A stretch of DNA of 60,642 nt, from the NCBI GenBank assembly GCA_049968235.1, contig JBMFRC010000019.1, positions 1-60,642 of the forward strand, read 5' to 3'. The DNA is from Candidatus Hydrogenedens sp. Lineage in GTDB: Bacteria > Hydrogenedentota > Hydrogenedentia > Hydrogenedentales > Hydrogenedentaceae. Under the pieces are notes generated by a model, which was not told the DNA's origin, did no database searches, and worked only from the letters and a program-made list of their open reading frames with translations. This document shows positions 3,823-60,390 of this stretch, piece by piece; the stretch's first letter is position 1; the number at the start of each line of letters is the position of its first letter. A program made the position numbers and the translations under genes.

Positions 3823-4085
3823 GAATAAAATTCCTTCGGCGGTATCTCCATATCCATGTTCATATCTGTATTTTCAAACTCTGCTAATATCCTTTCCGCT
3901 TCTTCTTCATCCACGACATTAATTGCCATACCTGCATGCACCAATACATACATCCCTTCTCTGGCTTCCGGTGTTAAAGCGAGGGATATTTCTTTAGTTA
4001 TTCCAGCAAATTGAACCTTTGCCATGCGAAGAGTTGGGTCACTTTCATCAATCTGGATAACTTTGCCCGGAATGGCTAAACACAT
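3819..4085 (-). CDS. hypC: Hydrogenase assembly chaperone HypC/HupF
   Basis: 88 aa, N-terminal MCLAIPGKV (essential Cys2 of HypC). Sits between hypF and hypD. Confidence 0.9.
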
Positions 4086-4088
4086 ATA

Positions 4089-21460: not shown

Positions 21461-21681
21461 ATATTTGAAAGTATGAATGTTATTTTCTCTAAGTAGAGAG
21501 GCGATGAGAATTTTTCTCTTTGATTACAACACTTAAAGCATAAATTTTTTTACAGTTTTAAAACACTTTTTGACATTTGGTTTTTATTCAATGGTTTTTT
21601 GTAATAAGAAAGGATATTTATACATAATAGAAAGATTGTCTTTGTTGTAAACAAGTGAATATATTTTTGGAGGATAATTAT

Positions 21682-32671: not shown

Positions 32672-35317
32672 TTATTCTATAATTGCAATTTGGTTCCAGT
32701 CGTTAATGCTTATATCAATAATGAAAAGATTCTCTTTCTGAGTTATTTTAAATTTATGTGGGATTTGTCTTCCTTTCAAATCAAAGAGAAACACTTGAGG
32801 TTTTTTATGCCATGTAAATGTTTTTGAAATTGATGTGATAATTCGTTCCTCGCCAATGAGATAGCCTTCATTTATTTCAACAGGAGTAAATGGGAACATG
32901 TGGTTGATAGGTCCATATTCTCCGGAACCTTCTCCTTCCAACGGGATAATATCTCCATAGTAATAATACAACAATCCATTTCTTAATGCAGTAATTACTG
33001 ATTTAATAATAATTTCTGCACATTTTTTCTTCCCTTCTTCTTCGAAGCGTTGCGGTCGGATACCCAAAATAATGGGAGTGGATAGGTGTCCTTTAGCACA
33101 ATATATCGTCAAAGGGGGTTTTTTATCCATGTAAGTTAGAGGATTTACTGGGTCGTTTTCAAATTCGGCAAATCGAAATACTTTTGGGATGTTTTGTTCT
33201 TCATTGGAACTCGGGAAACTGTTAATTACGGATATTCCACCTTTGGAGACGATATAATTGAGAATATCTTTCCGGGCTTCTGCTCCAATAAGTCCACAAT
33301 CGGTATATTTTTTTGTAATTTTCCCCGTAACTTCGTCAATATCTACTGTATAGCCGTCCCATTTTTCATAAGTATGTCTATCTACTCTTCCGATGGGTCC
33401 CCAATTCAGGGTAAATTGGTCGATATAAACACCATCCAGACCGACTTCATCCATCAGGAAGTCTATCTGGCTTTTAAAGAAGTTATAACGGTAATTGTTT
33501 CTTTCGATATATAACAATAAATTTAGGGTATCCGGACTGCTCGGATAATAAGTATCCACGATAACTCTACCATCCTCCGTTTGCAAAATAGAATCTAACC
33601 ATGTGTTAATGCCTGCTTTCAAAACCTCGCTTTGTTTTTTATCGAGAATGGCTCCATATTTTCCGGACCGAGGCATAGAACCGCCCGGAAGGATTTCTCC
33701 GCCTTTAATATTCCTTTTGTCTATAGTATACAAATTAGTTTCAGTCATACCCAATATGAACGTATCAGGCTGGGCTTGTTTAATCTTATCAATAATAGGT
33801 TTGACTTGCTTTTTATAATCTTCCCGCGTAAATATTTTGCCCGTCTCCGGATTTAAACTGTAATAATCCAGCCAGGGACCAACTGTATATATTTTAATTT
33901 TTCGTTCTGGAATAATCTGGTCGGAGAAAGCAAAAGGTCCCTCAATGGTATGATTTACACCCCATTCTCTTCGTACCTTGTTAATAAAGGTAAAATAATC
34001 CCCTCCTTTCGATGGATAAAGTGAAAATTGGAATATATAACTCCCGCCCCTGTCCAGACCAAAATGTTTTGCGGAATATTGGAACATATTACTTTTCTTT
34101 GTTATCTCACCTTGTGCCCGAAGCAAATTATCTTCTGCCAGAAAACCTAAGGATGTGTCTCTATAAGCCATAAAGATAGTTGGGTTCTCTGCCACTCCTG
34201 CTAGTCTCTCCATATCCTCAATACCTGCAATACGATATCGAACGGGCATATCTTCTAATATAATTTGATGTGTAATAATAATACCAACAGGTTCATCATT
34301 TTTATTTGTAATGGTTTCTTTTACCGATATTTTTTCACTCTTTGTCTCGATACTACATGTAATTGAATAGTCTTTACCTGAACCTTCGATAGATACCGAA
34401 TTATTCGAGATTTTTTGAATAGTTACTTTCCAATCGGGTGAATTCTCATATGTAGAATCGAAGGAGTTAAAACCGATTTTCTCGGAGGGGTATGAATAGA
34501 TACTAACGAGTTTATATTTTCCCTCTGCTATCTTAATTTCTGTTTCACCTCCTTCTCCAATATTGACGGTGTAATTATCGGTGGAAATACTTTCCCGAGT
34601 ATTTAACCAGGTATATGCAGTCATTTCCGGCTTTGAATATTTTTCCACGAATCCACTCGGTAGATAACCTATCTCAAGATTTTCAATGACCATATCGATG
34701 TTCTTACACGGAACATTCTTGTTAATATATGTATTGATAAAATCAATTTGATTCTTTTCTGCTTTTTCGATTCTCTCATCCGCCCCTATTTCAACATAAT
34801 GAACAACATCTGAAATATTTAATAAATACCAATAACCCTCTTCTTGATAATTCAATATACGCTCATCTAATTTTTCTCCATTCCCAAAATATGTAAGTAT
34901 CACAGGATAGCCATTTCTTGAACTCCACCATGCCTGTTCTCCTGGTATAGTTTTTAATGCAGTTCCGCGATTAATAAGGCGATTGTATCCACTTGACTGT
35001 TCTGAGAAAGAAGTCTGTTTATCTAATTTTTGTCCATTTATTTCGATTCCTAAATATTCATTCCAGCCACCGGGGGCATCTGTATGCAACCGTGCTTTAA
35101 ATTTCATAACCAGAATCATATCCTTTTTCTTCTCAAATGAAGGTAGTTCTACCGAATATTTACTAACATCCGTATCGTGAGAATGTATGATGATGGGAGT
35201 ATCCATTTTCCAAACAGAAGAAAAGACGTTCGTTTCACATAATGAAGCAGAATAAGACGAAATACAGGGACAAAGAAAAACAATGCATAATAAAAAATAT
35301 ACTATTTCTTTTTTCAT
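32672..35317 (-). CDS. Large secreted hypothetical protein (about 881 aa), possible glycoside-hydrolase-like
   Basis: The probable start is the Met of MKKEIVYFLLCIVFLCPC (signal peptide); the ORF extends to 35371. No motif confidently recognised. Rich in aromatic/Asp residues typical of carbohydrate-active enzymes. Confidence 0.4.
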   Translation of the reverse strand: MKKEIVYFLLCIVFLCPCISSYSASLCETNVFSSVWKMDTPIIIHSHDTDVSKYSVELPSFEKKKDMILVMKFKARLHTDAPGGWNEYLGIEINGQKLDKQTSFSEQSSGYNRLINRGTALKTIPGEQAWWSSRNGYPVILTYFGNGEKLDERILNYQEEGYWYLLNISDVVHYVEIGADERIEKAEKNQIDFINTYINKNVPCKNIDMVIENLEIGYLPSGFVEKYSKPEMTAYTWLNTRESISTDNYTVNIGEGGETEIKIAEGKYKLVSIYSYPSEKIGFNSFDSTYENSPDWKVTIQKISNNSVSIEGSGKDYSITCSIETKSEKISVKETITNKNDEPVGIIITHQIILEDMPVRYRIAGIEDMERLAGVAENPTIFMAYRDTSLGFLAEDNLLRAQGEITKKSNMFQYSAKHFGLDRGGSYIFQFSLYPSKGGDYFTFINKVRREWGVNHTIEGPFAFSDQIIPERKIKIYTVGPWLDYYSLNPETGKIFTREDYKKQVKPIIDKIKQAQPDTFILGMTETNLYTIDKRNIKGGEILPGGSMPRSGKYGAILDKKQSEVLKAGINTWLDSILQTEDGRVIVDTYYPSSPDTLNLLLYIERNNYRYNFFKSQIDFLMDEVGLDGVYIDQFTLNWGPIGRVDRHTYEKWDGYTVDIDEVTGKITKKYTDCGLIGAEARKDILNYIVSKGGISVINSFPSSNEEQNIPKVFRFAEFENDPVNPLTYMDKKPPLTIYCAKGHLSTPIILGIRPQRFEEEGKKKCAEIIIKSVITALRNGLLYYYYGDIIPLEGEGSGEYGPINHMFPFTPVEINEGYLIGEERIITSISKTFTWHKKPQVFLFDLKGRQIPHKFKITQKENLFIIDISINDWNQIAIIE

Positions 35318-35789
35318 GTATCTACTCCTTATATATTTAAAAGGAACTATTGAGATAGGAAAAAATCCCATTCCTTTTTTACATGCTTTTATACAACAAT
35401 TTATCTACATATTATATTAGATGCCATTATAAATGAAAGGTAAAACTATGTTGCATAATAGGTGTAAAAAACTTGCATTCACACGGATTCCATCCTACTT
35501 ATGCCGGGATTCATTAATAATTTGGAATGACGAAATATCTTTCGCCCAAATGTAGCATAGATATTTTTGCCTGTGGATGGAGTATATAGAGGAAGAAAAC
35601 AAAAACAAAATGTCTATTTTTTACTCCTATATTTATATTGGAAGGTCCCTGTTCATTTTATATGAAACAATATCATTGTTCCTTGGTTTAACTAAATTGA
35701 ATATTCGTTGCATCCCCTTTGCTGTATCCCTCTAAACAGTTTGATTTTTTTAATAAGAAGTATAAGGGTAGTTTAAGGAAAACCTTTAT

Positions 35790-39248: not shown

Positions 39249-40697
39249 TTACGGTAATTGTTCTGAGGCTAATGCTACTACTCTATAAGCACCGTTATAA
39301 GTACCTACTTTCTTTAATTGAACAATCTGTTCGTTATACATTTTTAATAAATCATCTTCCTCAACAAGCATATTTAGAACCTGTAATGTAAAATCGAGCC
39401 CGACGCATTCTGGTGTACTATCACCAATTTCACTAGCACGAATTGCTCCCCATGCCTCATGACCACCAACTCGTTCCAGTAATAATTTCGGTATAGGATA
39501 AAATGCAAGTTCACTCGGTTTTGTTATTAGCAAATCACTGGGACGCATTAGTAAATTCGTAGTATAAACAGCAGAATAGGTATTATCATGGAGAAAACCA
39601 TGAAGCGTCCCCGATACTTTATTATCCAATGCATTTTTTACAAATTGTTTCGTTTCATCCCAGTGATTATGCAAATTAAGCAGGTCATCAAAGTGTGGAA
39701 TATTTTTCTTAAAGTATTCCAATGCATTTACATGGTCCCCAAAATTTAAGAACAGAATTAATTTTCCTTCTATTATCCATTTCCATAGAAATTTAACAAT
39801 ATTTACGAGCAAATTTTGCTGTGCACCGGCTCCTCCAATAGAAATCAAAAATCTGCGAGGTTCTTTTTTATCCATACGGGATATACGATTTTGCACATCT
39901 TCCTCTAATGGAGCGAGCAACTCATGGTCAACATAATGTCCAACTGCTTTAATTTGACTTTGTGGAATTCCTTTTCCAATACCCGGCGGAATCATCCCCC
40001 GTAAGGTTCGGAAACCAAAATATTCAGATGGACCCTGCACAACCTGTAATGCATCCGGGGAAAGATGAAAACCTAATGGACAATTATCCGGAATAAGGTT
40101 CAAAACCTTACGCATACCTGCAAAACTTGCTCCATGTGCATTGAACGGATGTGTCGCCAGAACAGGGATATTGGGGTCCAGTTGACGATATACATCGGAT
40201 AATATCTCTGCGGTTGCCATTACGGGATAATTCTTTTCCAGTCCCCGATACCATTTCCCCATTAACGGGTCCCAAAAGAAACGGTTAAACATTTTCGATT
40301 TCTGTGAGATGCGAGAACCTAATGAATACCAATAATCCAGATAGCGAATCATTCGTGCTCCTGCACTATTAAAGTTCAACAAATCAAACCAGTAAGGAAT
40401 ATAGCCCGCATAGTTAACAGCAGAGGCTATTGCCATTCCGATGCGATAATGTCCATATCCCATACGAATTGTTCCAATTACCATTCCTTTTTGTGGGTCA
40501 AGGGCTATGCCCTCCTTCTCCGAAAAGACATCATGCAAATTAATAAAAGGAGATAAAATCTCATTGGGTTTTGCAATTAGTGGGAATTCATCTTTACCTG
40601 TATATCCAAACTTTTTGGCAAACTTCCTCTTTAATTTTTCACCTTTTTGTATCGATTTATCTGAAAGAGGCATTCCGAACAAAGTTTTATGGTTCAT
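39249..40697 (-). CDS. Putative glycosyltransferase (GT28 / MGDG-synthase-like)
   Basis: 482 aa. N-terminal GTIRMGYGHYRIGMAIASA resembles the GxGH(x)2A motif of the MurG/MGDG synthase N-domain. A later ISIGGAGAQQ segment resembles the C-terminal nucleotide-sugar binding domain. Low-to-moderate confidence. Confidence 0.4.
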   Translation of the reverse strand: MNHKTLFGMPLSDKSIQKGEKLKRKFAKKFGYTGKDEFPLIAKPNEILSPFINLHDVFSEKEGIALDPQKGMVIGTIRMGYGHYRIGMAIASAVNYAGYIPYWFDLLNFNSAGARMIRYLDYWYSLGSRISQKSKMFNRFFWDPLMGKWYRGLEKNYPVMATAEILSDVYRQLDPNIPVLATHPFNAHGASFAGMRKVLNLIPDNCPLGFHLSPDALQVVQGPSEYFGFRTLRGMIPPGIGKGIPQSQIKAVGHYVDHELLAPLEEDVQNRISRMDKKEPRRFLISIGGAGAQQNLLVNIVKFLWKWIIEGKLILFLNFGDHVNALEYFKKNIPHFDDLLNLHNHWDETKQFVKNALDNKVSGTLHGFLHDNTYSAVYTTNLLMRPSDLLITKPSELAFYPIPKLLLERVGGHEAWGAIRASEIGDSTPECVGLDFTLQVLNMLVEEDDLLKMYNEQIVQLKKVGTYNGAYRVVALASEQLP

Positions 40698-40956: not shown

Positions 40957-42282
40957 ATGAAACGGAAAAAACAAAAAAAGGAATCTTTAAATCGAAGGGA
41001 ATTCTTAAAAAGGACGGGGCTTGCCTCGTTAGCAACAGTTGCGTTTCCATATATCATTCCGGGCAGGGCACTAGGACTTGATGGAGCAGTTCCTCCCAGT
41101 GAACGAATTACAATTGGTTGTATCGGTGTTGGTGGTATGGGCACATCCAATATGGAAGGTTTTCTCAGCCAACCTTCTGCACAGGTTGTGGCTATATGTG
41201 ATGTCGATGCAAAGCATCTTGAAACGGCGATGAAAAAAGTAAACGACCGTTATGGCAATCAGGATTGTGCAGGTTATAAAGACTTCCGAGAGTTAATTGC
41301 CCGTGATGATATTGATGCGGTTTCATTAGCGTTACCGGACCAATGGCATGCAATTCCTGCAATTATGGCTGTAAAAGCGGGAAAAGATGTTTATGGTGAA
41401 AAACCATTAGCAGGCTCAATTAAAGAAGGACGAGCCATTGTCGATGCAGTGGAACAATATGGCAGAATCTGGCAAACGGGCAGTTGGCAGAGGTCACAGG
41501 AGCATTTCCGTCAGGCATGTGAACTCGTTCGCAATGGATACATCGGTGAAGTGAAATATGTTGTTGTTGGTTTACCCGCAAAGAACTCCATTAATAAAGG
41601 CAGTACAACCCCAACAGACCCACCTCCGTGGTTCGATTATAATATGTGGTTAGGACCAGCCCCATACGCACCGTATTGTGAAGCCCGATGCCATTGGAAT
41701 TTTCGCTGGATTAGTGATTACGCAGGTGGACAATTAACCGACTGGGCTGGACACCATTGCGATATTGCCCAATGGGGCATGGGAACCGAACTCACAGGAC
41801 CCGTTGAAATCATCCCAAGAGGCGGACATTGGCCTAAAGCAGAAGATGGACTTTTTGATACCGTAGAAGATTATGAATTCCTTTGCAAATTCAAAGAAGG
41901 TTTTGATATGTTAGTAACTGCACGGCAAAAAGGGGGCGTTTTATTCAAAGGTTCGGAAGGCTGGATACATGTTGACCGTGGTGCTTTCGATGCATACCCG
42001 CGGTCTTTAGTTCAAACAGAAATTAAACCTCATGAATTACATTTGTACCGTTCTTCAAATCATATTGGAAACTTTTTAGAATGTGTCCGTACTCGCAAGA
42101 AAACCATCACCCCTGCTGAAGTAGCACATCATTCCATTATGATTGGACATTTAGGACTGATAGCCCTTAAATTAGGCAGACCATTAAAATTCGACCCTGA
42201 TACAGAAACCTTTGTAAATGATTCCGAAGCCAATCGTATGCTCTGCAGACCCATGCGTGAGCCGTGGCACCTAAATATTTAG
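40957..42282 (+). CDS. Tat-exported Gfo/Idh/MocA family oxidoreductase (ThuB-like), second copy
   Basis: Twin-arginine signal NRREFLKRTGLASLATVAF. Rossmann motif IGCIGVGGMGTSN. Colinear with 21682..22953, including the shared C-terminal ...RLI.QPMREPW motif. Confidence 0.8.
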   Translation: MKRKKQKKESLNRREFLKRTGLASLATVAFPYIIPGRALGLDGAVPPSERITIGCIGVGGMGTSNMEGFLSQPSAQVVAICDVDAKHLETAMKKVNDRYGNQDCAGYKDFRELIARDDIDAVSLALPDQWHAIPAIMAVKAGKDVYGEKPLAGSIKEGRAIVDAVEQYGRIWQTGSWQRSQEHFRQACELVRNGYIGEVKYVVVGLPAKNSINKGSTTPTDPPPWFDYNMWLGPAPYAPYCEARCHWNFRWISDYAGGQLTDWAGHHCDIAQWGMGTELTGPVEIIPRGGHWPKAEDGLFDTVEDYEFLCKFKEGFDMLVTARQKGGVLFKGSEGWIHVDRGAFDAYPRSLVQTEIKPHELHLYRSSNHIGNFLECVRTRKKTITPAEVAHHSIMIGHLGLIALKLGRPLKFDPDTETFVNDSEANRMLCRPMREPWHLNI

Positions 42283-42323
42283 TAATTACTTATGAACCTT
42301 CTTTCATACATAGGAGAAATAAT

Positions 42324-45300
42324 ATGAATTATAGGACAAGACAAATAATTGTAGGAAAGTTTCTTATTGCCCTTATTTTGACTTTTATTCCTATGAATCT
42401 TATGGCAGAACCTACAATTAAAGCACTACTATTAACAGGGCAAAACAATCATCGCTGGGACATCAGTTTCCCCATTTTGAAGGATGCTCTGGAAAAAACG
42501 GGACTATTTCAGGTGGATGTGCTTCAATCGCCTGCTCAGGGCGCTGATTTTTCCTCCTTTAAGCCAGAATTCCAAAATTATCAGGTGGTTATTTTAGATT
42601 ACAACGGTGACCCCTGGCCTGAAAATGTAAGACAATCCTTTGTATCTTATGTGGAAAATGGTGGAGGGGTAGTTGTTTACCACGCTGCAAATAATGCTTT
42701 CCCTGACTGGCCTGAATTTAATAAAATTATTGGTCTTGGTGGTTGGGGCAACCGTGATGAGCGCTGGGGTCCGTATGTTCGCTGGCGAGATGGGAAGGTC
42801 GTAAAAGATAATATTCCGGGACCCGGTGGTAGTCATGGAACACAGCATGCCTTTCAAGTTGTAATACGCGACCGCAATCATCCCATTACAAAGGGACTCC
42901 CTCCGATATGGCTCCATGCAAAAGATGAGTTATATGACCGTCTGCGTGGTCCTGCAGAAAACTTAACTGTTCTCGCAACCGCTTATTCCAGTCCCGAAGA
43001 AAAGGGAACCGGTGAACATGAACCGATTCTTTTCACAGTACAATATGGAAAAGGCAGAATTTTCCAGACTGTTTTAGGACACCCGCAAGAGGATACTCCT
43101 GTGGCATTACAATGTGCAGGTTTCCTTACTACATTCCTGCGAGGTGCAGAATGGTGTGCTACCGGTAAAGTAACACAACCTGTTCCCGAAGATTTTCCGG
43201 GACCTGATGAAATTCGTATCTGGGAAGAAAATCGTTATATTCCCCTTGCGGAATTATTGGAACGGATAAAAGGGTATAAAGCCCTGGATAGCCTTGCCAC
43301 AATAACTCAAATTAATGAATACCTCCGTGTTATGACCTCTGATAAAAGGTCTCTGGCAAATGCTGAAAAGGAAATGATTAAATTCCTTCTTTCCGACGCG
43401 ACAATAGATGCCAAAAAATATGTATGCTCAAAATTAGGAGAATTAGGTTCTCAAGCATCTGTCCCCGTTCTAACGGATTTGTTACAGGTCCCTGAATTAT
43501 TTGATTCAGCCCGTTTTGCTCTCGAAAAAATACCCGGGGAACTATCCGCTCGTGCCCTGCGAAATGCGTTACAGACAACCGAAGGGAAAAACCGTATTGG
43601 CATTATTACCTCACTTGGTTTGCGAAAGGATGTCAAGTCCATCTCTTCTATTGCGGTATTTTTGAACAATAGTGACCCTGATATTGTAATTTCTGCGGGT
43701 TCTGCTCTTTGTATGATGGAAGAGGAAAGTGCTCTTTCAGCATTATGGACAGCACATTCACAATCTATTGAATCAGCCCGTTTGAAATTAACACAACATG
43801 CTTTTGCCTGTGCCGATAAAATATTAGCGAAGAAGAAATCCCCCGATGCCCTTGCAGTAATACGTAGTTTATCCGCAGATAGTTCGCTTACACCTTCTCT
43901 ACGGATAGCATCGCTACGCAGTCTATTAAAGTACTCTGAGGAAGAAGGGACAAAAGTATTAGTAAAGGCACTTGGTGACCCTGATACTGATTTTGTTCGG
44001 CTCGTTATTGCCTCTACACCCTTAATAAAGAATAAGCAACTTCTATTAAATGTTGTATGCAAGGAAATGGCTTTTTCTACACCTGAAAATCAAGTGCAAT
44101 TTATCAATCTGTTCGCTTCACAAAAAAGAAAAGATATACTTCCCTATGTAGTTAACAGTCTCAATAGTGAGAATCCTGCAATTCGAGAAGCCAGCATAAA
44201 AGCACTCGGTGTTATAGGTGGCAAATCGGAAATAGAATTACTTATTCCCAAAGCCCTCGGCGAAGGAACAGAGGCAGAACTGGCAAAAGCAAGTCTTGCT
44301 TCGATGCCCGGAGATGACGCCGGACAGGGAATGTTGGATATATTGAAGAAACCCGATATAGAACCCGCTTTAAAGAAACTCCTTCTGCCCTTAGTTGCTA
44401 CACGAAAAGTACCCGGCAGTGAACCCATCATACTAAAATCTGCCGGAGATGCTGACCCGGAGTGTAGAATATCCGCTATAAAGAGCCTTATCGAACAGCC
44501 TAATGCAGAAATGCTTGACACGATTTTACAAATATTGCCGGGAGTCAGTTCCGATGAAGAACAAGAACTGTTTGCAGAACTGATTTTGAAAATTGCATTA
44601 CTGAATCCTGATGAAACGGAAAAACAATTGGTCAAAATTTCATCCGTACTGGATTCCAATTCCGCATTACCGGTGCAAACAGTTCTACTTCATGTCCTCG
44701 CACAGTCGGGGCATGTCAAAGGATGGGAGAAATTAAGCACATGTATAAGTACAAATACACCCGCCGATAAGTTGGGCATTGTAATACAAGCATTAAATAA
44801 ATGGCCAGATGATACGCCTGTTCCTGTCCTGATAGAATTTGCCCGTGCAAATCCTGAACTGCCACATCGAGATAGGTTACTCGAAACATGTTTGAATTTA
44901 ACACAAAAGACAAAATCTACCGATGAAGAAGTTATACAAAGGATTGCTTCTTTATTAGAATTAAATCCTTCTGCATCGGTAAAGAAATCTGCATTAGAAA
45001 AGATTGCCCAGCGGAAAGTTGATAGTTCATTACCCTTACTGCTTAAATACCTTCATGAATCTGAAGACCCTGTAAAGGAAACTTTGATTCGTTCTTTATC
45101 CAATTGGCGAAATGCGGAACCTCTAAATGCTTTATTGGAACTTGCCCGCACAACAGATAACGATTCTATTCGTCGGCAGTCTCTTGCAGGTGTTATTCAA
45201 TTATCGGATAATATTTGCAATATGTCCTCTGAACAACGGACACAATTGTTTAACGATGTGATAGCAATTGGCACAAAGCCTGAGATATTAAAAGGTATCA

Positions 45301-46031
45301 TAGGTGCCTTGCAAAACACATCTTATCCCGAAGCATTAGCCATTGTAACCCAATACCTGGATAATGAACAGGTAAAAAGTGAAGCGGAAGTTGCGGTCGT
45401 TAAACTTTCAAAAACGCTTATAGGAATTGCGACGGATATAGTTGCCCCCGCTCTCGAAAAAGTCATCCATCAAGGACAGATGGAACTAATCAAACAAGAA
45501 GCACAGAAAACTCTGGATATAATCCCGAAATTTGAGGATTTTATTACTACATGGATGGTCTCAGGTCCTTATATAAACGATGAAATTAACGCTAACATGT
45601 TGTATGAGTTCGTATTTGCACCGGAGAAACCCGAAGAAGCAGAAAAAGCATTATGGAAACCCGTTTCACCGGGAACCAATCCTAACAAACCCATGGTGGT
45701 TGAACTCCATAAAATATTAGGAGGGGAAAACCGTGTCGCTTATTTAAGCACTTATGTGTGGAGTGATACAGAGCAGGATGTTAATTTGTTAATCGGTAGT
45801 GATGATGGTGCCCGTATTTGGGTTAACGGGACAAAAGTATTCGGGAAAAATGCAAATCGTCCCTGCGTGCCTGATGATGATACAATAGGAATCCACTTGA
45901 AACAAGGTTGGAACCATATACTCGCCAAAATCCGTCAGGGTAGTGGAGAGTGGGAATTCTGTGCACGTATCCGCAAATCGGATGGCTCCCCATTTGAGCC
46001 AAAACTTAAAACTGCGATATTGCCTAAGTAA
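42324..46031 (+). CDS. Sec-exported multidomain protein: ThuA-like (type-1 glutamine amidotransferase-like) domain + HEAT repeats + C-terminal beta-sandwich (PA14/LamG-like) domain
   Basis: SD aggag precedes the ATG at 42324; the ORF runs from 42264. Signal peptide FLIALILTFIPMNLMA. Residues about 30-300 match ThuA (ALLLTGQNNHRWD...VVILDYNG...ENGGGVVVYHAANNAFPDW...HPIT...YGKGRIFQTVLGHP). About 650 aa of HEAT/PBS-lyase-like repeats follow. The C-terminal 200 aa (WMVSGPY...LIGSDDGARIWVNGTKVFG...) look like a beta-sandwich carbohydrate-binding fold. No CxxCH. Confidence 0.7.
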   Translation: MNYRTRQIIVGKFLIALILTFIPMNLMAEPTIKALLLTGQNNHRWDISFPILKDALEKTGLFQVDVLQSPAQGADFSSFKPEFQNYQVVILDYNGDPWPENVRQSFVSYVENGGGVVVYHAANNAFPDWPEFNKIIGLGGWGNRDERWGPYVRWRDGKVVKDNIPGPGGSHGTQHAFQVVIRDRNHPITKGLPPIWLHAKDELYDRLRGPAENLTVLATAYSSPEEKGTGEHEPILFTVQYGKGRIFQTVLGHPQEDTPVALQCAGFLTTFLRGAEWCATGKVTQPVPEDFPGPDEIRIWEENRYIPLAELLERIKGYKALDSLATITQINEYLRVMTSDKRSLANAEKEMIKFLLSDATIDAKKYVCSKLGELGSQASVPVLTDLLQVPELFDSARFALEKIPGELSARALRNALQTTEGKNRIGIITSLGLRKDVKSISSIAVFLNNSDPDIVISAGSALCMMEEESALSALWTAHSQSIESARLKLTQHAFACADKILAKKKSPDALAVIRSLSADSSLTPSLRIASLRSLLKYSEEEGTKVLVKALGDPDTDFVRLVIASTPLIKNKQLLLNVVCKEMAFSTPENQVQFINLFASQKRKDILPYVVNSLNSENPAIREASIKALGVIGGKSEIELLIPKALGEGTEAELAKASLASMPGDDAGQGMLDILKKPDIEPALKKLLLPLVATRKVPGSEPIILKSAGDADPECRISAIKSLIEQPNAEMLDTILQILPGVSSDEEQELFAELILKIALLNPDETEKQLVKISSVLDSNSALPVQTVLLHVLAQSGHVKGWEKLSTCISTNTPADKLGIVIQALNKWPDDTPVPVLIEFARANPELPHRDRLLETCLNLTQKTKSTDEEVIQRIASLLELNPSASVKKSALEKIAQRKVDSSLPLLLKYLHESEDPVKETLIRSLSNWRNAEPLNALLELARTTDNDSIRRQSLAGVIQLSDNICNMSSEQRTQLFNDVIAIGTKPEILKGIIGALQNTSYPEALAIVTQYLDNEQVKSEAEVAVVKLSKTLIGIATDIVAPALEKVIHQGQMELIKQEAQKTLDIIPKFEDFITTWMVSGPYINDEINANMLYEFVFAPEKPEEAEKALWKPVSPGTNPNKPMVVELHKILGGENRVAYLSTYVWSDTEQDVNLLIGSDDGARIWVNGTKVFGKNANRPCVPDDDTIGIHLKQGWNHILAKIRQGSGEWEFCARIRKSDGSPFEPKLKTAILPK

Positions 46032-46207: not shown

Positions 46208-47134
46208 ATGAAAAAGCATGGTTTCACCCTCATTGAACTTCTCGTCGTTATTGCTATCATCGGTATTCTTGCGGCAATACTATTACCAGCGCTTGCTCGT
46301 GCTCGTGAGGCGGCTCGTCGTTCCAGTTGCCAGAACAACTTAAAGCAAATCGGGCTTACATGTAAAATGTATGCAAACGAAGCCAAAGGGGAAAGATTCC
46401 CACCATCGAAACTATACAATTGCACAGAATTAAGTGGAGAATTTGTAATAGATTGTATGGCGGTGTATCCGGAATATTTAAACGACCCTGCTGTTCTATT
46501 ATGCCCTTCCGCAACAACAGGGAATGACCCGGAGAAAGTATTTAATAAAGCAGATAATCGTGCTCAGGTTATTGGAGACCGCGCCGGAAACTTTGTCCCC
46601 ACTGCTGGGGTTCCTAATACCGAATTTTATCCCTGCGAAGTAGATGATAGTAGTTGTTCTTACTTATATTTAGCATGGAACACATGGTTTCCGGGGATTA
46701 TTGACCGACCCGACCCACCGGAGAATCCTGATGTAAATGTAATGATAGATTGGTTAATGGCGAATAATCCGCAAGTGGTTATTATGTTAGGCAATCTATA
46801 CCCGCGTTTAGGGAATCCATCCCAAAATGATGAGGATTTCCAATTCAACGATGGAACCCAGAACTTAACGATGTATCGTTTGAGAGAGGGAATTGAACGC
46901 TTCATGATAACGGATATCAACAATCCCGCAGCAAGTGCCAAAGCCCAAAGTGAAATCCCTGTGTGTGGAGACTGGGTCAGCACCGATATAGGACAGGAAT
47001 TCAATCATGTACCCGGCGGTTGTAATTTCCTGTATATGGATGGTCATGTCGAATTTATTCGATACCCCGGCAAATGGCCTGTTAATCGCACAATGGCTGT
47101 TCTACAAAGTGAAGAAATTATGGACAGGTTCTAA
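46208..47134 (+). CDS. DUF1559 family protein with prepilin-type N-terminal cleavage/methylation domain and H-X9-DG-like C-terminal motif
   Basis: SD aaggag present. N-terminus [50 protein letters not shown] is the Planctomycete DUF1559 pseudopilin-like head. C-terminus [18 protein letters not shown]. Confidence 0.85.
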
Positions 47135-54294: not shown

Positions 54295-54534
54295 GTGGAC
54301 CAGGTAGTATCTACATCCTCCGGCATCCGGTATGTCGGAAAAGTAAAATGGTTTAATGACCGCAAGGGCTATGGTTTTATCATCAATGAATTAGGCGAGG
54401 ACATTTTTGTCCATCATACAGAAATCCGCATGAGAGGTTTTCGCACCCTTCGTGAAGGCGAGAAGATAACCTTTGAACTGGTGCAAGGACCAAAAGGGTT
54501 ACTTGCCAAAAATGTAAGCAGGGTGCGAATGTAA
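54295..54534 (+). CDS. cspA: Cold-shock protein (CspA family)
   Basis: GTG start with SD gaaggat. RNP1 KGYGFI and RNP2 VFVHH motifs. VKWFNDRKGYGF. 79 aa with a short N-terminal extension. Confidence 0.85.
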   Translation: MDQVVSTSSGIRYVGKVKWFNDRKGYGFIINELGEDIFVHHTEIRMRGFRTLREGEKITFELVQGPKGLLAKNVSRVRM

Positions 54535-54680
54535 AATAAGACCTGATTAAAATTACAAAACTTATAGGGGTATGAAAAGGCGGAGAGGTGTTTGTATTAT
54601 TTTGTAGAATTGAGTAATAATATTTTTCATACCGAAATTTGTTTTGGAATTTATAATCTAAATCAAGAAAGGAAAAGGAT

Positions 54681-55916
54681 ATGGGTATTTTCATTCTTAT
54701 GATAAGTTTGACCATGTTTGCACAAAGTTCAGATTGGGTCTCTCTTATTGAGAACAATACATTAGACGGATGGAAACCTTTAGGGGGAGAATGGACGATT
54801 CAGGACGGAATAATAAAAGGAAAATTAACAAAAACACCGGAAGAAAAAGATAAGCAAGTAAATATTTGGCTTCTTTATACGAGAAAAGAATTCGCTGACT
54901 TTGAGTTTGAGTGTGAATTTCGGACACAAAATCCTATCAATGGTGGCATTCAGTTTCGAACACAATGGCTACCTTTACTGCCGGTGCCTGAAAATGTTCC
55001 GCTCGAACAAGTCAAATATGATTGCTATGGTTATCAAGCGAATATTGAAACTCGTGAACGGTTTGGGACAGGCAGGATTATTGAAGAGAATGGCAGAGGT
55101 CTGTTAGCAGAACCTGCTCGCGAGGCAGTTATGACATTGAAACAGCGGGATTGGAATCGAATGAAGGTCGTCGCTATTGGACCTAAAATTGAGGTGTATC
55201 TCCATGACATTTTAGCAGGGACAATAGAAGATGATAACTACCTTAAAGGTTATATCCTTTTGCAGGTTCGTGCAGATGAAGTAATTCCAGAGACAGCAGA
55301 AATAGAGTATAGAAACATACGCATAAAAGATTTAGGTCGTAATGGAGATTGGCAGTGTCTTTTTAATGGGAAAGACCTTTCTGGCTGGCAAAATTATGGT
55401 TCGGAAGAATGGGTCGTTGAAGATGGTACTATTGTAGGGAAAAGTGGTCCTAAAAAATCAGAAGGCTATTTAGCAACAGAAAAACGTTGGAAGAACTTTC
55501 GTATTCGGGCTCAATTCAAAATGTTAGGTGAAGGAAATTATGGGCTATTTTATCATTCCAGTATTAAAATGCGTGAGGACGGTTATCCTCTTATTTCCGG
55601 TGTTCAAGTCGAGGTGGAGCCTGGCTATCCAACCAAAACAGGGTTCCTTTATGAAAGTTATAAACGAGGTTGGTTAACAGAACCGCATATTAAAACGCCC
55701 GGTGCATGGGCTCTTCGCAAGGGGGATTGGAATGAGATAGAAGTTAAAATGGAAGGCAATAGAATAATTTCGTGGTTAAACGGTGTTAAAGTAGTTGATT
55801 TTACAGATGCTTCTCCGAATTTACTTGAAGGTTTCTTTGCATTACAACTGCATACCGGTGGTGTTGCAGGTATCCAGTGGAGAGAACTATATGTGCAGGG
55901 AGAACCATTGCCATAA
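54681..55916 (+). CDS. Secreted protein with two tandem DUF1080 (3-keto-disaccharide hydrolase/lyase-like) domains
   Basis: Signal peptide MGIFILMISLTMFAQS. The first domain starts DWVSLIENNTLDGWKPLGGEWTIQDG and ends ...IEYRNIRIKDL. The second starts GDWQCLFNGKDLSGWQNYGSEEWVVEDG and ends ...GIQWRELYV. Both show the jelly-roll pattern of DUF1080. Confidence 0.75.
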   Translation: MGIFILMISLTMFAQSSDWVSLIENNTLDGWKPLGGEWTIQDGIIKGKLTKTPEEKDKQVNIWLLYTRKEFADFEFECEFRTQNPINGGIQFRTQWLPLLPVPENVPLEQVKYDCYGYQANIETRERFGTGRIIEENGRGLLAEPAREAVMTLKQRDWNRMKVVAIGPKIEVYLHDILAGTIEDDNYLKGYILLQVRADEVIPETAEIEYRNIRIKDLGRNGDWQCLFNGKDLSGWQNYGSEEWVVEDGTIVGKSGPKKSEGYLATEKRWKNFRIRAQFKMLGEGNYGLFYHSSIKMREDGYPLISGVQVEVEPGYPTKTGFLYESYKRGWLTEPHIKTPGAWALRKGDWNEIEVKMEGNRIISWLNGVKVVDFTDASPNLLEGFFALQLHTGGVAGIQWRELYVQGEPLP

Positions 55917-56017
55917 AATGAGAATAATTTAAATTTTTTTGTGATTTTTTTTATTCTATGGTGTATAATTTCATTACAAATAAAAAAATATCCAACCTTA
56001 AAAAAGGAGGGTGGAAA

Positions 56018-56626
56018 ATGAAAATGTATCACAAAAGTACTCGCAATCTATTTTTAATCCCGGTTGTTTGTCTTGTGATGTCCGGTTGCATAGGTGGATG
56101 TTTTGTTATTTCGGACATAAAATTTACAACACCCCTTATAAAAGGGGCAACCATTCCAGGTGGACCCGATGTGTATATTGACAAAGACATCGCTTTACCC
56201 AGGGTATGCGGACAATTCAATATGGAAAAAATTAAAGAACAGATAAAAACAGCCATACAAGCGTTGCCGATACCTCGAATAACTTCAAGAATATTGTTAA
56301 TGTTAATCAATAATGTTGAAATTAAAAATTTATGGATAGAAAAACTTACAATAACTGCAACTGAAGGTAATTTTTCAAAATTACAAAGTCTTGCCATAAA
56401 AGTAAAAATAGGAAATGGTGAGATTGACTTTGGACAGGGCAGTTTTAGTGATGACAAAACATCCATTGTGTTTGAAAAAGACCCGAAAGTAGATATTTAT
56501 CCGTATATAAAAAGTTTTTCGGATGGAGGTTGTGTAGAAGGGAATATCCATATCATTGGTTATAATAGTCAAACGGATATTAAGGTTGATGTTGTTGCTA
56601 ATGTTTCATTAAAAGTAGGCTTTTAG
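56018..56626 (+). CDS. Hypothetical lipoprotein (about 202 aa)
   Basis: Strong SD aaggaggg precedes the ATG at 56018; the ORF runs from 55958. Signal peptide and lipobox LVMSGC. No known motif. Confidence 0.45.
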   Translation: MKMYHKSTRNLFLIPVVCLVMSGCIGGCFVISDIKFTTPLIKGATIPGGPDVYIDKDIALPRVCGQFNMEKIKEQIKTAIQALPIPRITSRILLMLINNVEIKNLWIEKLTITATEGNFSKLQSLAIKVKIGNGEIDFGQGSFSDDKTSIVFEKDPKVDIYPYIKSFSDGGCVEGNIHIIGYNSQTDIKVDVVANVSLKVGF

Positions 56627-58143: not shown

Positions 58144-60390
58144 ATGTATCTTTTTATCATTATTGCTTTGTTATTGTCGAACTTTTTAGCATTTAATACC
58201 ACCGCACAGTCACCTTTGGATATAGCCCAAAAACATAATATTATTTATACAAAGATGCCCAAAACCTGGGATGAAGGGTTACCATTGGGAAATGGTTCTA
58301 TGGGTGCTTTAGTTTGGGGTAATGGTTCACCATTGATTATTTCGATTGACCGTATCGATTTATGGGATTTACGACCAGTTCCTGAATTTGAAAAGGAAGA
58401 GTATAACTTTGAAACAATGAAGAAATGGGAAAACGAAGGTCGCTATGATGATTTAATTAATTTGTATGAAAAACCATACGATAACCCCGGTCCTACAAAA
58501 ATTCCTGCGGGAAGAATAAAAATAAATTTACCCCAGGACAAAAACATAAAAAAAATGGAACTACATTTAAATTGTGCAATGGTCTCTATACATCTAACTG
58601 GTGGTGGACAATTAGAAGTTTACATTCTTTCTGAGTATCCGATAGGATTTATACGTTTGAAAAATTTACCGGATATAACTCCCGAACTAATTGCCCCGCC
58701 ATTTGGGAAACCATCCGATAACAAAAAATTAAGTAATGATGACTTGAGGATGCTTGAGTATCCACCCCCTCAAATGAGAAAAGAAGAGAATACACACTCT
58801 TATTTACAGGAAGGTTGGGGAGGATTTAAATTCGCTGTTTATATGGGCAGGGTAAAGGTAAGTGATAATGAGCAATTGATTGCATGGTCAATTATCCCTT
58901 CAAGTAATGAAACGACAGAACCTTTAGCCATTGCAGAAGAATGTGTCAAAGGTGTGTTAAATAAAGATTACAAGAACTATATACAATCGCATATACAATG
59001 GTGGGAAAAATACTGGAAACAGACCTATGTATCCATACCGGATGAAATTATTGAAAAACGTTGGTATCACGAAACTTATAAATTTGGTTCTGCGGGTGGT
59101 ATTTATCCAATTGCTTTACAGGGACCCTGGACCGCCGATAATGGGAAACGACCACCTTGGAAAGGGGATTATCATCACGACCTGAATACCCAAATGTCCT
59201 ACTGGATAGCTTATTCCGGCAATCGATTAGAACAAGAACGATACTTTATTGAATGGCTATGGAATATCCGAGATGAATGTTTCAAATGGACACAGCGATT
59301 TTTTAATAAACCAGGCTTAAATGTAGCCATGACCACCGATATTATTGGCAGACAAATCGGAGGCTGGCGACAATATACACATTCCGCAACGACAGGTGCT
59401 TGGTTAGCCCATCATTTTTACTGGCACTGGAAATATACAAATGACAGAAACTTCCTGGAACAACGTGCATATCCTTACCTGCACGACTGTGCGGTCTTTC
59501 TCGATGCGATAACCAAAGATACCCGTTCTACCGATGGAAAAAGAAATCTTCCATTAAGTTCCTCTCCCGAAATTAACGATAACAATCCCAATGCATGGTT
59601 TGATGAATTGACCAACTACGATTTATCGCTCATTCGCTGGCTGTTTACATCCACTGCCGAATTAGCAGGAATTCTTGGAAAAGAAGAAGAACAAAAACAC
59701 TGGTTGACAATCGCCGAAGAATTCCCTCAACTCTGGGTTTCTGATAAAGAAGGATTATTAGTAGCAAAGGATTACAAATTACCTCATTCACATCGCCATT
59801 TCTCTCATTTAATGTCAATATTCCCATTAGGTATGTTAAATCCGTATAATGACAATGATATGGAAATCATAAATAAATCGTTGGACTATCTTGATAAATT
59901 AGGCACATCCCAATGGTGCGGATATAGTTTCGCATGGAAAAGCATTTTGTCCGCTCGTGCTGGTAGAACCGAAGACACAATTCGAAACCTAAAAATCTTC
60001 TCAGAAGGCTTTGTATTACCAAATAGTTTCCATTGCAACGGTGACCAATCCGGCAAAGGATATAGCGATTTCAAATATCGTCCATTTACATTAGAAGGAA
60101 ATTTTGCTTCAGGAACTGCCGTTCAGGAAATGCTATTACAAAGTCATAATGGGTTGATACACATATTTCCTTGCATTCCTGATGATTGGAAAAATGTATC
60201 CTTTTACCAACTTCGAGCGGAAGGTGGTTTCTTAATTTCTGCTGAACGAAAAGCAGGGAAGACAATAAAAGTTATTATCCAATCCGATATGGGAACACAA
60301 AGCACAATACTTTGTCCCTTTACCAACAAAAGAATAGACTTAAAATTCAAACCCGGAGAAACAAAAGAATTGAAACCACCAAACAATTAA
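58144..60390 (+). CDS. Secreted glycoside hydrolase, GH95-like (alpha-L-fucosidase/galactosidase family)
   Basis: Signal peptide. The N-terminal region LPLGNGSMGALVWGNG...IDRIDLWD resembles the conserved GH95 N-terminal LPIGNGRLGAMVFGG...LNEDTLW block. 748 aa fits GH95 size. Family call not verified. Confidence 0.45.
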   Translation: MYLFIIIALLLSNFLAFNTTAQSPLDIAQKHNIIYTKMPKTWDEGLPLGNGSMGALVWGNGSPLIISIDRIDLWDLRPVPEFEKEEYNFETMKKWENEGRYDDLINLYEKPYDNPGPTKIPAGRIKINLPQDKNIKKMELHLNCAMVSIHLTGGGQLEVYILSEYPIGFIRLKNLPDITPELIAPPFGKPSDNKKLSNDDLRMLEYPPPQMRKEENTHSYLQEGWGGFKFAVYMGRVKVSDNEQLIAWSIIPSSNETTEPLAIAEECVKGVLNKDYKNYIQSHIQWWEKYWKQTYVSIPDEIIEKRWYHETYKFGSAGGIYPIALQGPWTADNGKRPPWKGDYHHDLNTQMSYWIAYSGNRLEQERYFIEWLWNIRDECFKWTQRFFNKPGLNVAMTTDIIGRQIGGWRQYTHSATTGAWLAHHFYWHWKYTNDRNFLEQRAYPYLHDCAVFLDAITKDTRSTDGKRNLPLSSSPEINDNNPNAWFDELTNYDLSLIRWLFTSTAELAGILGKEEEQKHWLTIAEEFPQLWVSDKEGLLVAKDYKLPHSHRHFSHLMSIFPLGMLNPYNDNDMEIINKSLDYLDKLGTSQWCGYSFAWKSILSARAGRTEDTIRNLKIFSEGFVLPNSFHCNGDQSGKGYSDFKYRPFTLEGNFASGTAVQEMLLQSHNGLIHIFPCIPDDWKNVSFYQLRAEGGFLISAERKAGKTIKVIIQSDMGTQSTILCPFTNKRIDLKFKPGETKELKPPNN

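What the first reader, a model, noticed from the sequence alone, without database searches (positions are those of the whole stretch)
54681..55916. Free-standing secreted tandem-DUF1080 protein, with other oxidative glycoside pathway parts scattered in the window
Besides the two modules, the window encodes a secreted protein made of two DUF1080 domains. Further candidate parts are a secreted xylose-isomerase-like TIM barrel (10912..11748, the fold used by the 3-keto-glycoside hydratase step in Bacteroides), a GxGYxYP-like protein (25803..27650) and a GH95-like enzyme (58144..60390). Together they suggest an unusually heavy investment in periplasmic 3-keto-type glycan processing. The substrate specificity of each DUF1080 copy is unknown.
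Basis: partly seen in the sequence, partly recalled or inferred. Interest (0 to 1): 0.5.

Follow-up and report, generated by a model that had tools for sequence, protein, structure and literature searches.

The report
Secreted two-domain DUF1080 protein, ordinary
The gene is real and encodes an exported protein made of two DUF1080 sugar-processing domains, but it is a routine and already annotated member of a large known family, and only its second domain looks like an active enzyme.

Summary
ORF 54681..55916 (+) encodes a 411-aa protein with two PF06439 (DUF1080) domains (95 and 136 bits; cutoff 26.8).

The window is a contig of a Candidatus Hydrogenedens MAG, and NCBI already names this protein "3-keto-disaccharide hydrolase". 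About 400-aa orthologues (44-87% identity) are common in Hydrogenedentota, and nearly all carry clear Sec signal peptides.

The closest solved structure is BT3469 (PDB 4jqt), itself a tandem DUF1080 protein.

Against the characterised BT2157 3-keto-glycoside eliminase/hydratase:
- The C-terminal domain keeps the Asn, Tyr and Gln-x-His residues and a Gln/Glu pair, all invariant in 31 orthologues.
- It lacks the Lys245-bearing insertion.
- The N-terminal domain has lost the His and the Tyr and evolves faster.

Across ten orthologue neighbourhoods there is no conserved link to GFO dehydrogenases or TIM-barrel lyases.

The window holds three DUF1080 domains, not four.

Most likely this is a periplasmic 3-keto-sugar lyase/hydratase with a non-catalytic N-terminal module. 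It is a new member of a known kind, of low interest.

The parts
54681..55916 (+). Gene for the 411-aa tandem-DUF1080 protein (stop codon included)
   Evidence: ORF list. PF06439 matched twice, E 5e-66. 100% identical database entry named 'MAG: 3-keto-disaccharide hydrolase [Candidatus Hydrogenedens sp.]'.
54668..54679 (+). Purine-rich Shine-Dalgarno-like stretch (aaaggaaaagga) just before the ATG
   Evidence: Read directly from the sequence. An in-frame TAA at 54654-54656 excludes a longer N-terminus.
54681..54725 (+). Putative Sec signal peptide, residues 1-15 (MGIFILMISLTMFAQ)
   Evidence: Hydrophobic 10-mer score 2.65. All 31 orthologues have an equivalent segment, most with a K/R n-region and an A-x-A type site. 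No signal-peptide predictor was run.
54729..55334 (+). N-terminal DUF1080 domain D1 (residues 17-218), degenerate
   Evidence: PF06439 95.5 bits. 13 of 202 columns invariant; mean pairwise identity 48%. The BT2157 His275 position is Arg197 and varies in the family; the Tyr190 position is Ile134.
55335..55913 (+). C-terminal DUF1080 domain D2 (residues 219-411), the probable catalytic domain
55536..55538 (+). Asn286, aligned with BT2157 Asn134
   Evidence: Invariant in 31 orthologues. Alignment to BT2157.
55605..55613 (+). Gln309-Val-Glu311 on the central strand, in place of BT2157 Glu164-Tyr-Gln166
   Evidence: Both Gln309 and Glu311 are invariant. MAFFT pairs E164 with Q309 and Q166 with E311. 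hhalign of D1 implies a register two residues different, so the exact equivalence is unresolved.
55650..55652 (+). Tyr324, aligned with BT2157 Tyr190
   Evidence: Invariant; part of the YESYxRGWL motif shared with BT3469 domain 1 (GIYDEARRNWL).
55845..55853 (+). Gln389-Leu-His391, aligned with BT2157 Gln273-Asp-His275
   Evidence: Invariant ALQLH motif. Alignment to BT2157.
54295..54534 (+). Context only: cold-shock protein gene 146 bp upstream on the same strand
   Evidence: PF00313, E 6e-24. No functional link shown.
55958..56626 (+). Context only: conserved small lipoprotein gene directly downstream (the real start is probably a Met about 20 codons into the ORF)
   Evidence: Lipobox-like VMSGC. 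Homologous + strand ORF in the 73%-identical relative, L001 11325..11942. No Pfam or NCBIfam hit.
21655..22953 (+). Candidate partner, unlinked: TAT-signal GFO/IDH/MocA oxidoreductase 1
   Evidence: PF19051 441 bits. RREFLK twin-arginine motif. 27% identity to a BT2158 orthologue. BT_2158_fam 149 bits against a cutoff of 750.
22966..25752 (+). HEAT-repeat protein with the third DUF1080 domain (residues 741-926), canonical ExQ / Y / H type
   Evidence: PF06439 135.9 bits. Motifs EIQILDD, SIYG and LLGH. Groups with the BT2157 family in the NJ tree.
40957..42282 (+). Candidate partner, unlinked: TAT-signal GFO/IDH/MocA oxidoreductase 2
   Evidence: (33% identity to a BT2158 orthologue over 265 aa).
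42264..46031 (+). ThuA-domain plus HEAT-repeat protein following oxidoreductase 2
   Evidence: PF06283 98 bits and HEAT_2 128 bits. No PF06439 match.
10912..11748 (-). Secreted xylose-isomerase-like TIM barrel, 43 kb away
   Evidence: PF01261 96.8 bits. Signal peptide. Best PDB match is 4ovx; no match to BT1/AL1.

Best explanation
The gene encodes a Sec-exported, soluble periplasmic or extracellular protein made of two concanavalin-like DUF1080 jelly-roll domains.

The C-terminal domain (residues 219-411) is the working enzyme. It belongs to the DUF1080 sub-type of the BT3469 N-terminal domain. By analogy with BT2157/AL2 it most likely binds a 3-keto-sugar through a metal plus the Asn286 / Gln309-Glu311 / Tyr324 / Gln389-His391 constellation. 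It would then catalyse 1,2-elimination of the aglycone from a 3-keto-glycoside and/or hydration of the resulting 3-keto-2-hydroxy-glycal.

The 3-keto substrates would come from TAT-exported GFO/IDH/MocA dehydrogenases encoded elsewhere. Two lie in this window, 8.6 and 29 kb away.

The N-terminal domain (residues 17-218) arose from an old duplication, has lost the His and Tyr, and is less constrained. It most likely acts as a non-catalytic glycan-binding or scaffolding module.

Shown here: gene, domain architecture, fold, export signal at family level, residue conservation, and the lack of operon linkage. Inferred: the chemistry, the substrate, the dehydrogenase partner and the role of the N-terminal domain.
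For: Family and fold:
- Two PF06439 domains.
- AF2 model with pLDDT 91.9 and pTM 0.89.

Active-site mapping:
- The BT2157 sequence was recovered from L010, and its numbering matches the eight published active-site residues (bioRxiv 10.1101/2024.03.25.586180).
- D2 retains Asn, Tyr and Gln-x-His plus a Gln/Glu pair on the equivalent strand. All are invariant in 31 orthologues spanning 44-87% identity to the window protein.
- D2 has 47 of 193 invariant columns against 13 of 202 in D1.

Export:
- Signal peptides are found throughout the family.

Biochemical precedent:
- BT2157 consumes 3-keto-trehalose (PMC8121099). It is an alpha-lyase/hydratase.

Possible partners in the window:
- Two TAT-signal GFO enzymes of the BT2158 lineage, and a ThuA protein.

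Domain history:
- In the NJ tree D1 and D2 each form a clade. D2 is sister to BT3469 domain 1, so the duplication predates the family's radiation.
Against: - No member of the D2 / BT3469-N sub-type has been assayed.
- BT2157 Glu164 has no straightforward equivalent. The position is either Gly307, or it is swapped with Gln (the alignments disagree by two residues).
- Glu103 is not alignable.
- The Lys245-bearing insertion is absent.
- In ten orthologue neighbourhoods the gene is never in a conserved cluster with a GFO dehydrogenase or a TIM-barrel lyase. A GFO gene is adjacent only once, in L091.
- The window copy's signal peptide lacks a charged n-region.
Confidence: 0.5

Rival explanations
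1. A non-enzymatic tandem lectin or carbohydrate-binding protein. Both jelly-roll domains would only bind glycans, as CBM66, galectins and LamG domains do, for example to capture substrate or interact with the cell surface.
For: - DUF1080 and CBM66 designations overlap (PMC5673643).
- Tandem galectins and laminin-G pairs appear among the two-domain Foldseek hits.
- DUF1080 is a frequent periplasmic sensor-side domain of Planctomycete Ser/Thr kinases (PMC11032199).
- D1 has lost the His and the Tyr.
Against: - D2 keeps, as invariant residues, the same Asn/Tyr/Gln-x-His positions that line the BT2157 active site. D2 is also unusually conserved (47 invariant columns), which fits a catalytic site better than a binding surface.
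- These residues also contact ligand in BT2157, however, so binding alone is not excluded.
Confidence: 0.2
2. A true hydrolytic endo-beta-glucanase, like the DUF1080 protein THTE_1561 of Thermogutta terrifontis (lichenan, CMC and xanthan backbone). It would act directly on polysaccharide without prior oxidation.
For: - THTE_1561 is reported to hydrolyse several beta-glucans and xanthan at 0.1-1.5 U/mg (PMC10881899).
- A GH95 gene lies 2.2 kb downstream on the same strand, here and in the 73%-identical relative.
Against: - None of the 31 orthologues contains the GH16 catalytic motif E-[ILV]-D-[IVAF]-[VILMF]?-E.
- Only one acidic residue on the central strand (Glu311) is invariant.
- The reported THTE_1561 activities are low.
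Confidence: 0.1
3. A phylum-wide housekeeping periplasmic enzyme acting on an endogenous glycan or keto-sugar (cell-envelope or exopolysaccharide turnover), rather than a nutrient-acquisition enzyme.
For: - Orthologues are found across Hydrogenedentota with very strong conservation of D2.
- The gene stands alone among unrelated, often housekeeping, genes in ten different contexts.
- In this window and in its 73%-identical relative L001, its neighbours include an NAD-dependent sugar-nucleotide epimerase/dehydratase and a conserved lipoprotein.
Against: - This rests on the absence of a catabolic context.
- Copy number per genome and presence in every genome were not established.
- Glycosidase genes (GH95, GH116, GH38, GH31) occur within 10 kb in several contexts.
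Confidence: 0.15

Closest known systems
BT3469 of Bacteroides thetaiotaomicron (PDB 4jqt), a tandem-DUF1080 'putative glycosyl hydrolase'
   Same: - A secreted chain of about 430 aa with two DUF1080 jelly rolls.
- The two share the motifs GxQxExE/D, Y-[ED]-x-x-[KR]-R-x-W-L and ALQxH.
   Different: - The domain order is not equivalent. The partner domain of BT3469 is a canonical 'EFQILDD' type at the C-terminus, whereas here the partner is a degenerate His-less domain at the N-terminus.
- BT3469 has no published biochemistry. KEGG labels it alpha-3'-ketoglucosidase by homology (PMC12619756).
[quoted passage not shown]
   Same: - Same Pfam family and fold, and both are exported.
- D2 conserves the equivalents of Asn134, Tyr190, Gln273 and His275, plus a Gln/Glu pair on the strand that carries Glu164 and Gln166.
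   Different: - BT2157 is a single-domain lipoprotein encoded in an operon with two GFO dehydrogenases, a TIM-barrel lyase and a regulator.
- It has extra 'finger' insertions, including the one carrying Lys245.
- Only about 18-20% identity.
- The window protein has two domains, is not a lipoprotein, lacks that insertion and is not in such an operon.
CCNA_01705 / CCNA_01698 of Caulobacter crescentus (DUF1080, genetic evidence for 3'-ketolactose / raffinose use)
   Same: Periplasmic DUF1080 proteins proposed to act after a periplasmic glycoside 3-dehydrogenase (PMC9007349).
   Different: They are single-domain and encoded next to the LacABC dehydrogenase. Sequences were not compared here.
THTE_1561 of Thermogutta terrifontis (DUF1080 endo-glucanase / xanthanase)
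   Same: A secreted DUF1080 protein.
   Different: It is a 23.7-kDa single domain with reported direct hydrolytic activity.
CBM66 (Bacillus subtilis SacC levanase module, PDB 4b1m)
   Different: It is a non-catalytic fructan-binding module attached to a GH32 enzyme. About 20% identity. Its binding residues were not compared.

Membership tests
Pfam PF06439 (DUF1080 / 3keto-disac_hyd) | Each domain scores above the gathering cutoff (26.8 bits) | tested here: met
   D1 95.5 bits, D2 135.7 bits. Whole protein 222.7 bits with 2 stretches.
Pfam PF06439 (DUF1080 / 3keto-disac_hyd) | Concanavalin-like beta-jelly-roll fold | tested here: met
BT2157/AL2-type 3-keto-glycoside lyase/hydratase | Active-site set Glu103, Asn134, Glu164, Gln166, Tyr190, Lys245, Gln273, His275, tested in the C-terminal domain | tested here: inconclusive
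   - Asn286, Tyr324, Gln389 and His391 are present and invariant.
- The Gln309/Glu311 pair is present, but swapped or shifted relative to Glu164/Gln166.
- Glu103 is not alignable.
- Lys245 is absent.

BT2157/AL2-type 3-keto-glycoside lyase/hydratase | The same active-site set, tested in the N-terminal domain | tested here: not met
   His275 corresponds to Arg197, which varies across orthologues. Tyr190 corresponds to Ile134. Glu164 corresponds to Gly117. The Lys245 insertion is absent. Only Asn87, Gln119 and Gln195 are kept.
BT2157/AL2-type 3-keto-glycoside lyase/hydratase | Export to the periplasm (signal peptide) | tested here: met
   N-terminal hydrophobic segment in 31 of 31 orthologues, with a K/R n-region in about 25 of 31. 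The window copy lacks the charged n-region. No dedicated predictor was run.
BT2157/AL2-type 3-keto-glycoside lyase/hydratase | Gene cluster with a TAT-exported GFO glycoside 3-dehydrogenase and a TIM-barrel lyase | tested here: not met
   Ten orthologue contexts were read. A GFO gene is adjacent in one (L091) and lies within 10 kb in two others (L001, L006). No arrangement is conserved. In the window the nearest GFO module ends 8.6 kb away.
BT2157/AL2-type 3-keto-glycoside lyase/hydratase | Elimination/hydration activity on 3-keto-glycosides | not testable with these tools
   Needs an enzyme assay.
BT3469 (4jqt)-type tandem DUF1080 | Two DUF1080 domains in one exported chain of about 400-430 aa | tested here: met
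BT3469 (4jqt)-type tandem DUF1080 | Same order and types of the two domains | tested here: not met
   The window's D2 matches BT3469 domain 1 (80.8 bits) and only weakly matches domain 2 (40.7 bits). The window's D1 gave no reported match to 4jqt.
GH16-like endo-glucanase mechanism (rival; THTE_1561 analogy) | Catalytic motif E-[ILV]-D-[IVAF]-[VILMF](0,1)-E | tested here: not met
   A regular-expression search found it in 0 of 31 orthologues.
GH16-like endo-glucanase mechanism (rival; THTE_1561 analogy) | Sequence similarity to THTE_1561 | not tested
   The sequence (ASV74163.1) could not be obtained with the tools.
CBM66 | Fold similarity | tested here: met
CBM66 | Fructan-binding residues or demonstrated binding | not tested
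   No residue-level superposition or binding assay was possible.

The most novel reading that the evidence does not exclude
The C-terminal domain, together with the BT3469 N-terminal domain, defines an uncharacterised DUF1080 sub-type. Its signature is GxQxE ... Y[ED]xx[KR]RxWL ... ALQxH, with no Glu164 equivalent and no Lys245 finger. Its chemistry or substrate would differ from BT2157, for example another keto-sugar, or hydration only.

In this reading the N-terminal domain is a pseudo-enzyme recruited as a binding module. The protein's conservation across the phylum, with no fixed gene context, would reflect a housekeeping periplasmic role in Hydrogenedentota rather than nutrient scavenging.
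Probability: 0.2. Interest if true: 0.45.

Novelty: new member of a known kind. Interest (0 to 1): 0.2.

Why it matters
The oxidation-elimination-hydration route for breaking glycosidic bonds was worked out only recently, in gut Bacteroidota. DUF1080 is one of its least understood components and is greatly expanded in Planctomycetes (PMC5673643).

This protein adds a conserved Hydrogenedentota family. It gives a testable prediction: only the C-terminal domain is catalytic, and residues Asn286, Gln309, Glu311, Tyr324, Gln389 and His391 matter. It also flags the BT3469-N sub-type as unassayed.

It does not reveal a new kind of system. The gene is already annotated by Pfam-based naming, and the tandem architecture already has a crystal structure.

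Tried and rejected
1. Conserved operon partners. Ten orthologue neighbourhoods were read. Only the 73%-identical relative shares the window's context. An aldo-keto reductase lies divergently upstream in two cases (L006, L007), and a GFO gene is adjacent once (L091). That is too sporadic to count as linkage.

2. A curated equivalog for DUF1080. NCBIfam has BT_2158 and BT_2159 models but nothing that matches BT2157 itself or any of the three window domains. No membership call was possible that way.

3. Promoter and terminator scan of 53900-56800. Counts were at shuffle level and say nothing about the transcription unit.

4. GH16 catalytic motif. Absent.

5. Cytochrome c (CxxCH) motifs in the two HEAT-repeat proteins, as possible electron acceptors. 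None found.

6. The AFDB Foldseek library was not available.

7. Exact equivalence of BT2157 Glu164/Gln166. hhalign and MAFFT differ by a two-residue register. This could not be resolved because model coordinates cannot be superposed with the tools.

8. A fourth DUF1080 domain. Not found. The C-terminus of the ThuA-HEAT protein looks (by eye, untested) like a beta-sandwich region but does not match PF06439.

9. Papers on 8RR2/9FBE or BT3469 biochemistry. None found in the library.
Full report
**1. Observation**

The ORF 54681..55916 (+) exists as stated and encodes 411 aa. An in-frame TAA eight codons upstream leaves ATG 54681 as the only start, and a purine-rich Shine-Dalgarno-like stretch precedes it.

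Pfam PF06439 (DUF1080, now named '3keto-disac_hyd') matches twice (E 5e-66). Scanned separately:
- D1 (residues 17-218) scores 95.5 bits.
- D2 (residues 219-411) scores 135.7 bits.
- The gathering cutoff is 26.8 bits.

- a secreted AP_endonuc_2 TIM barrel at 10912..11748 (-);
- a GxGYxYP-like protein at 25803..27650;
- a GH95-like protein at 58144..60390.

An HMM scan of every six-frame ORF finds three DUF1080 domains in the window, not four.

**2. Origin and family**

A 100% identical protein sits on a 60,642-bp contig of a 'Candidatus Hydrogenedens sp.' MAG. NCBI names it '3-keto-disaccharide hydrolase'. Orthologues of about 400 aa with the same two-domain layout, 44-87% identical, are numerous. 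Where they are named, almost all come from Hydrogenedentota.

In an alignment of 31 of them (A1), nearly all have a textbook Sec signal peptide. The window copy and its closest relatives have the hydrophobic core and an A-Q|S site but no charged n-region. No cysteine follows the signal, so the protein is not a lipoprotein. Export is therefore well supported for the family and probable for this copy.

**3. The two domains are not equivalent**

| | D1 | D2 |
|---|---|---|
| Invariant columns | 13 of 202 | 47 of 193 |
| Mean pairwise identity | 48% | 65% |

In a neighbour-joining tree each domain forms its own clade. D2 is sister to the N-terminal domain of BT3469. The third window domain, at the C-terminus of the HEAT-repeat protein 22966..25752, groups with the BT2157 family. 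The duplication therefore predates the radiation of the family.

**4. Structure**

AlphaFold2 run on alignment A1 gives a confident model (pLDDT 91.9, pTM 0.89).

- Foldseek against the PDB puts 4jqt first. This is BT3469 of B. thetaiotaomicron, itself a tandem DUF1080 protein.
- Single-domain DUF1080 structures follow, including BT2157 (3osd, 8tda, 8rr2, 9fbe) and AL2 (8v31).

**5. Comparison with the characterised enzyme**

In the Bacteroides/Alistipes pathway:
- a TAT-exported GFO dehydrogenase makes the 3-keto-glycoside;
- the TIM-barrel protein BT1/AL1 is the 3-keto-beta-glucoside 1,2-lyase;
- the DUF1080 protein BT2/AL2 is the 3-keto-alpha-glucoside 1,2-lyase and the efficient 3-keto-2-hydroxy-glucal hydratase.

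The conserved BT2 site is Glu103, Asn134, Glu164, Gln166, Tyr190, Lys245, Gln273 and His275, with a Ca2+-type metal (bioRxiv 10.1101/2024.03.25.586180). Purified BT2157 consumes 3-keto-trehalose (PMC8121099).

I recovered a BT2157 orthologue from a B. thetaiotaomicron genome (L010:3809-4681). All eight published residue numbers fall on the expected amino acids.

Profile and multiple alignments give this mapping:

| BT2157 residue | D2 | D1 |
|---|---|---|
| Glu103 | not alignable | not alignable |
| Asn134 | Asn286 (invariant) | Asn87 |
| Glu164 / Gln166 | Gln309 / Glu311 (both invariant), on the same strand | Gly117 at the Glu164 position; Gln119 kept |
| Tyr190 | Tyr324 (invariant) | Ile134 |
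| Lys245 (on an insertion) | insertion absent | insertion absent |
| Gln273 | Gln389 (invariant) | Gln195 |
| His275 | His391 (invariant) | Arg197, variable across orthologues |

For the Glu164/Gln166 pair, the D2 residues are either swapped or shifted by two residues relative to BT2157. The two alignment methods disagree on which.

D2 shares its particular motifs (GxQxE, Y[ED]xx[KR]RxWL, ALQxH) with BT3469 domain 1. The third window domain has the canonical EIQILDD / IYG / LLGH pattern.

D2 is thus a plausible catalytic domain of a BT2157-related but distinct, unassayed sub-type. D1 fails the active-site test.

**6. Genomic context**

In the window, the following genes lie on the + strand with gaps of 41-146 bp:
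1. a cold-shock gene;
2. the DUF1080 gene;
3. a small conserved lipoprotein gene;
4. an Mrp/ApbC-type ATPase gene;
5. the GH95 gene.

This order recurs only in the 73%-identical relative (L001). Nine further orthologue contexts are all different. They show no conserved GFO, TIM-barrel, ThuA or transporter partner. 'Free-standing' is therefore correct, and the gene cannot be tied to the window's two GFO modules by position.

Those modules do look like periplasmic sugar dehydrogenase systems:
- Both GFO proteins have twin-arginine signals.
- They are 27-33% identical to a BT2158 orthologue.
- Their best NCBIfam hit is the BT_2158 'glycoside 3-dehydrogenase' model, though far below its cutoff.
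- One is followed by a ThuA-domain protein.

The TIM barrel is exported but has no detectable sequence match to BT1/AL1.

**7. How common is the architecture?**

A phmmer search with D1 alone against 1.84 billion representative proteins gives 1813 hits at E <= 1e-3 and only 11 at E <= 1e-30. Many of the best 150 are proteins of about 400 aa with two matched stretches. Tandem DUF1080 proteins are therefore common, while the D1 sub-type itself is narrow.

**8. Explanation and rivals**

Most likely (about 0.5): an exported 3-keto-sugar lyase/hydratase whose C-terminal domain is catalytic and whose N-terminal domain is a non-catalytic binding or scaffold module. It would act on products of TAT-exported GFO dehydrogenases encoded elsewhere.

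Rivals:
- A purely glycan-binding tandem lectin (0.2). This draws on the closeness to CBM66 and on the use of DUF1080 as a periplasmic sensor domain (PMC11032199).
- A THTE_1561-like direct endo-glucanase (0.1). No GH16 motif is present, and the activities reported for THTE_1561 are low (PMC10881899).
- A housekeeping role on an endogenous glycan (0.15).

**9. Verdict**

The enzyme roles were imprecise: in Bacteroides the TIM barrel is mainly the beta-lyase and DUF1080 is the efficient hydratase. The domain count is three, not four. GH95 and GxGYxYP are not known pathway parts. 'Unusually heavy investment' is untestable from one contig.
- The protein is a new member of a known kind, already annotated, and its architecture already has a crystal structure. 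Interest is low.
- The useful residue of the analysis is the prediction that only D2 is catalytic, and that it belongs to the unassayed BT3469-N sub-type.

Noticed in passing
window 54295..54534 (+): A 79-aa cold-shock protein gene (PF00313, E 6e-24) with a GTG start lies in what looked like a 736-bp intergenic gap upstream of the DUF1080 gene. An 11/12 sigma-70-like site (TTGACA-17-TAAAAT) sits at 54184-54212, which would give the gene a 5' leader of roughly 80 nt.
   Followed up: partly
window 55958..56626 (+); L001 11325..11942 (+): A conserved lipoprotein gene of about 200 aa (lipobox-like VMSGC / FFSGC) with no Pfam or NCBIfam hit lies directly downstream of the DUF1080 gene in both genomes. 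In the public gene calls for L001, two antisense ORFs (75 and 145 aa) were called instead of it.
   Followed up: partly
L001 9962..11239 (+): The 73%-identical orthologue P0007 has an in-frame ATG 13 codons upstream of its called start. Using it would add a K/R-rich n-region (MLSKCKLRVRKIC) to its signal peptide, so the called start is probably too short. The window copy cannot be extended this way because a stop lies 8 codons upstream.
   Followed up: partly
window 42264..46031 (+), residues ~1130-1255: The C-terminus of the ThuA + HEAT-repeat protein contains a segment with W..NG-type motifs that, by eye, looks like a beta-sandwich region (not tested). It does not match PF06439 or my DUF1080 HMMs.
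   Followed up: partly
window 27785..29818 (+): A Ser/Thr protein kinase is fused to an FGE-sulfatase (sulfatase-modifying-factor-like) domain. A survey of Planctomycete kinases (PMC11032199) describes this sulfatase-modifying-enzyme domain as widespread and mostly periplasmic; here it occurs in a Hydrogenedens MAG.
   Followed up: no
window 1618..7059 (-): A hydrogenase maturation gene set: a HypE-like AIRS protein, HypD (503 bits), HypF and a HypB/CobW-type GTPase.
   Followed up: no
window 46208..47134 (+): A protein with a prepilin-type N-methylation motif plus DUF1559 lies directly after the ThuA-HEAT gene. From my own knowledge this combination is typical of Planctomycetes; it is notable in Hydrogenedentota.
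   Followed up: no
window 32672..35371 (-), 7576..8718 (-), 39249..40697 (-): Large ORFs of 899 aa and 380 aa have no Pfam match. A 482-aa protein consists of DUF6937 + DUF6938.
   Followed up: no
L006 6794..7768 (-), L007 6958..7917 (-), L091 4902..5954 (+): In two distant orthologue contexts an aldo-keto reductase gene lies divergently upstream of the tandem DUF1080 gene. In a third, a 350-aa GFO/IDH/MocA gene lies 46 bp upstream on the same strand, with a second single-domain DUF1080 gene nearby. These could be sporadic functional links, or chance.
   Followed up: partly
L008 (CAAEVC010000124.1): A 2.4-kb contig binned as 'uncultured Dialister sp.' carries a GFO gene of the BT2158 type and a BT2157-like gene whose 91-aa matched segment is 99% identical to B. 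thetaiotaomicron BT2157. It is probably a mis-binned Bacteroides contig.
   Followed up: no
window 21655..22953 (+): The listed GTG start of the first GFO oxidoreductase precedes the twin-arginine signal by 9 residues. The real start is probably the ATG at residue 10 (MARKKTTRREFLK...).
   Followed up: no
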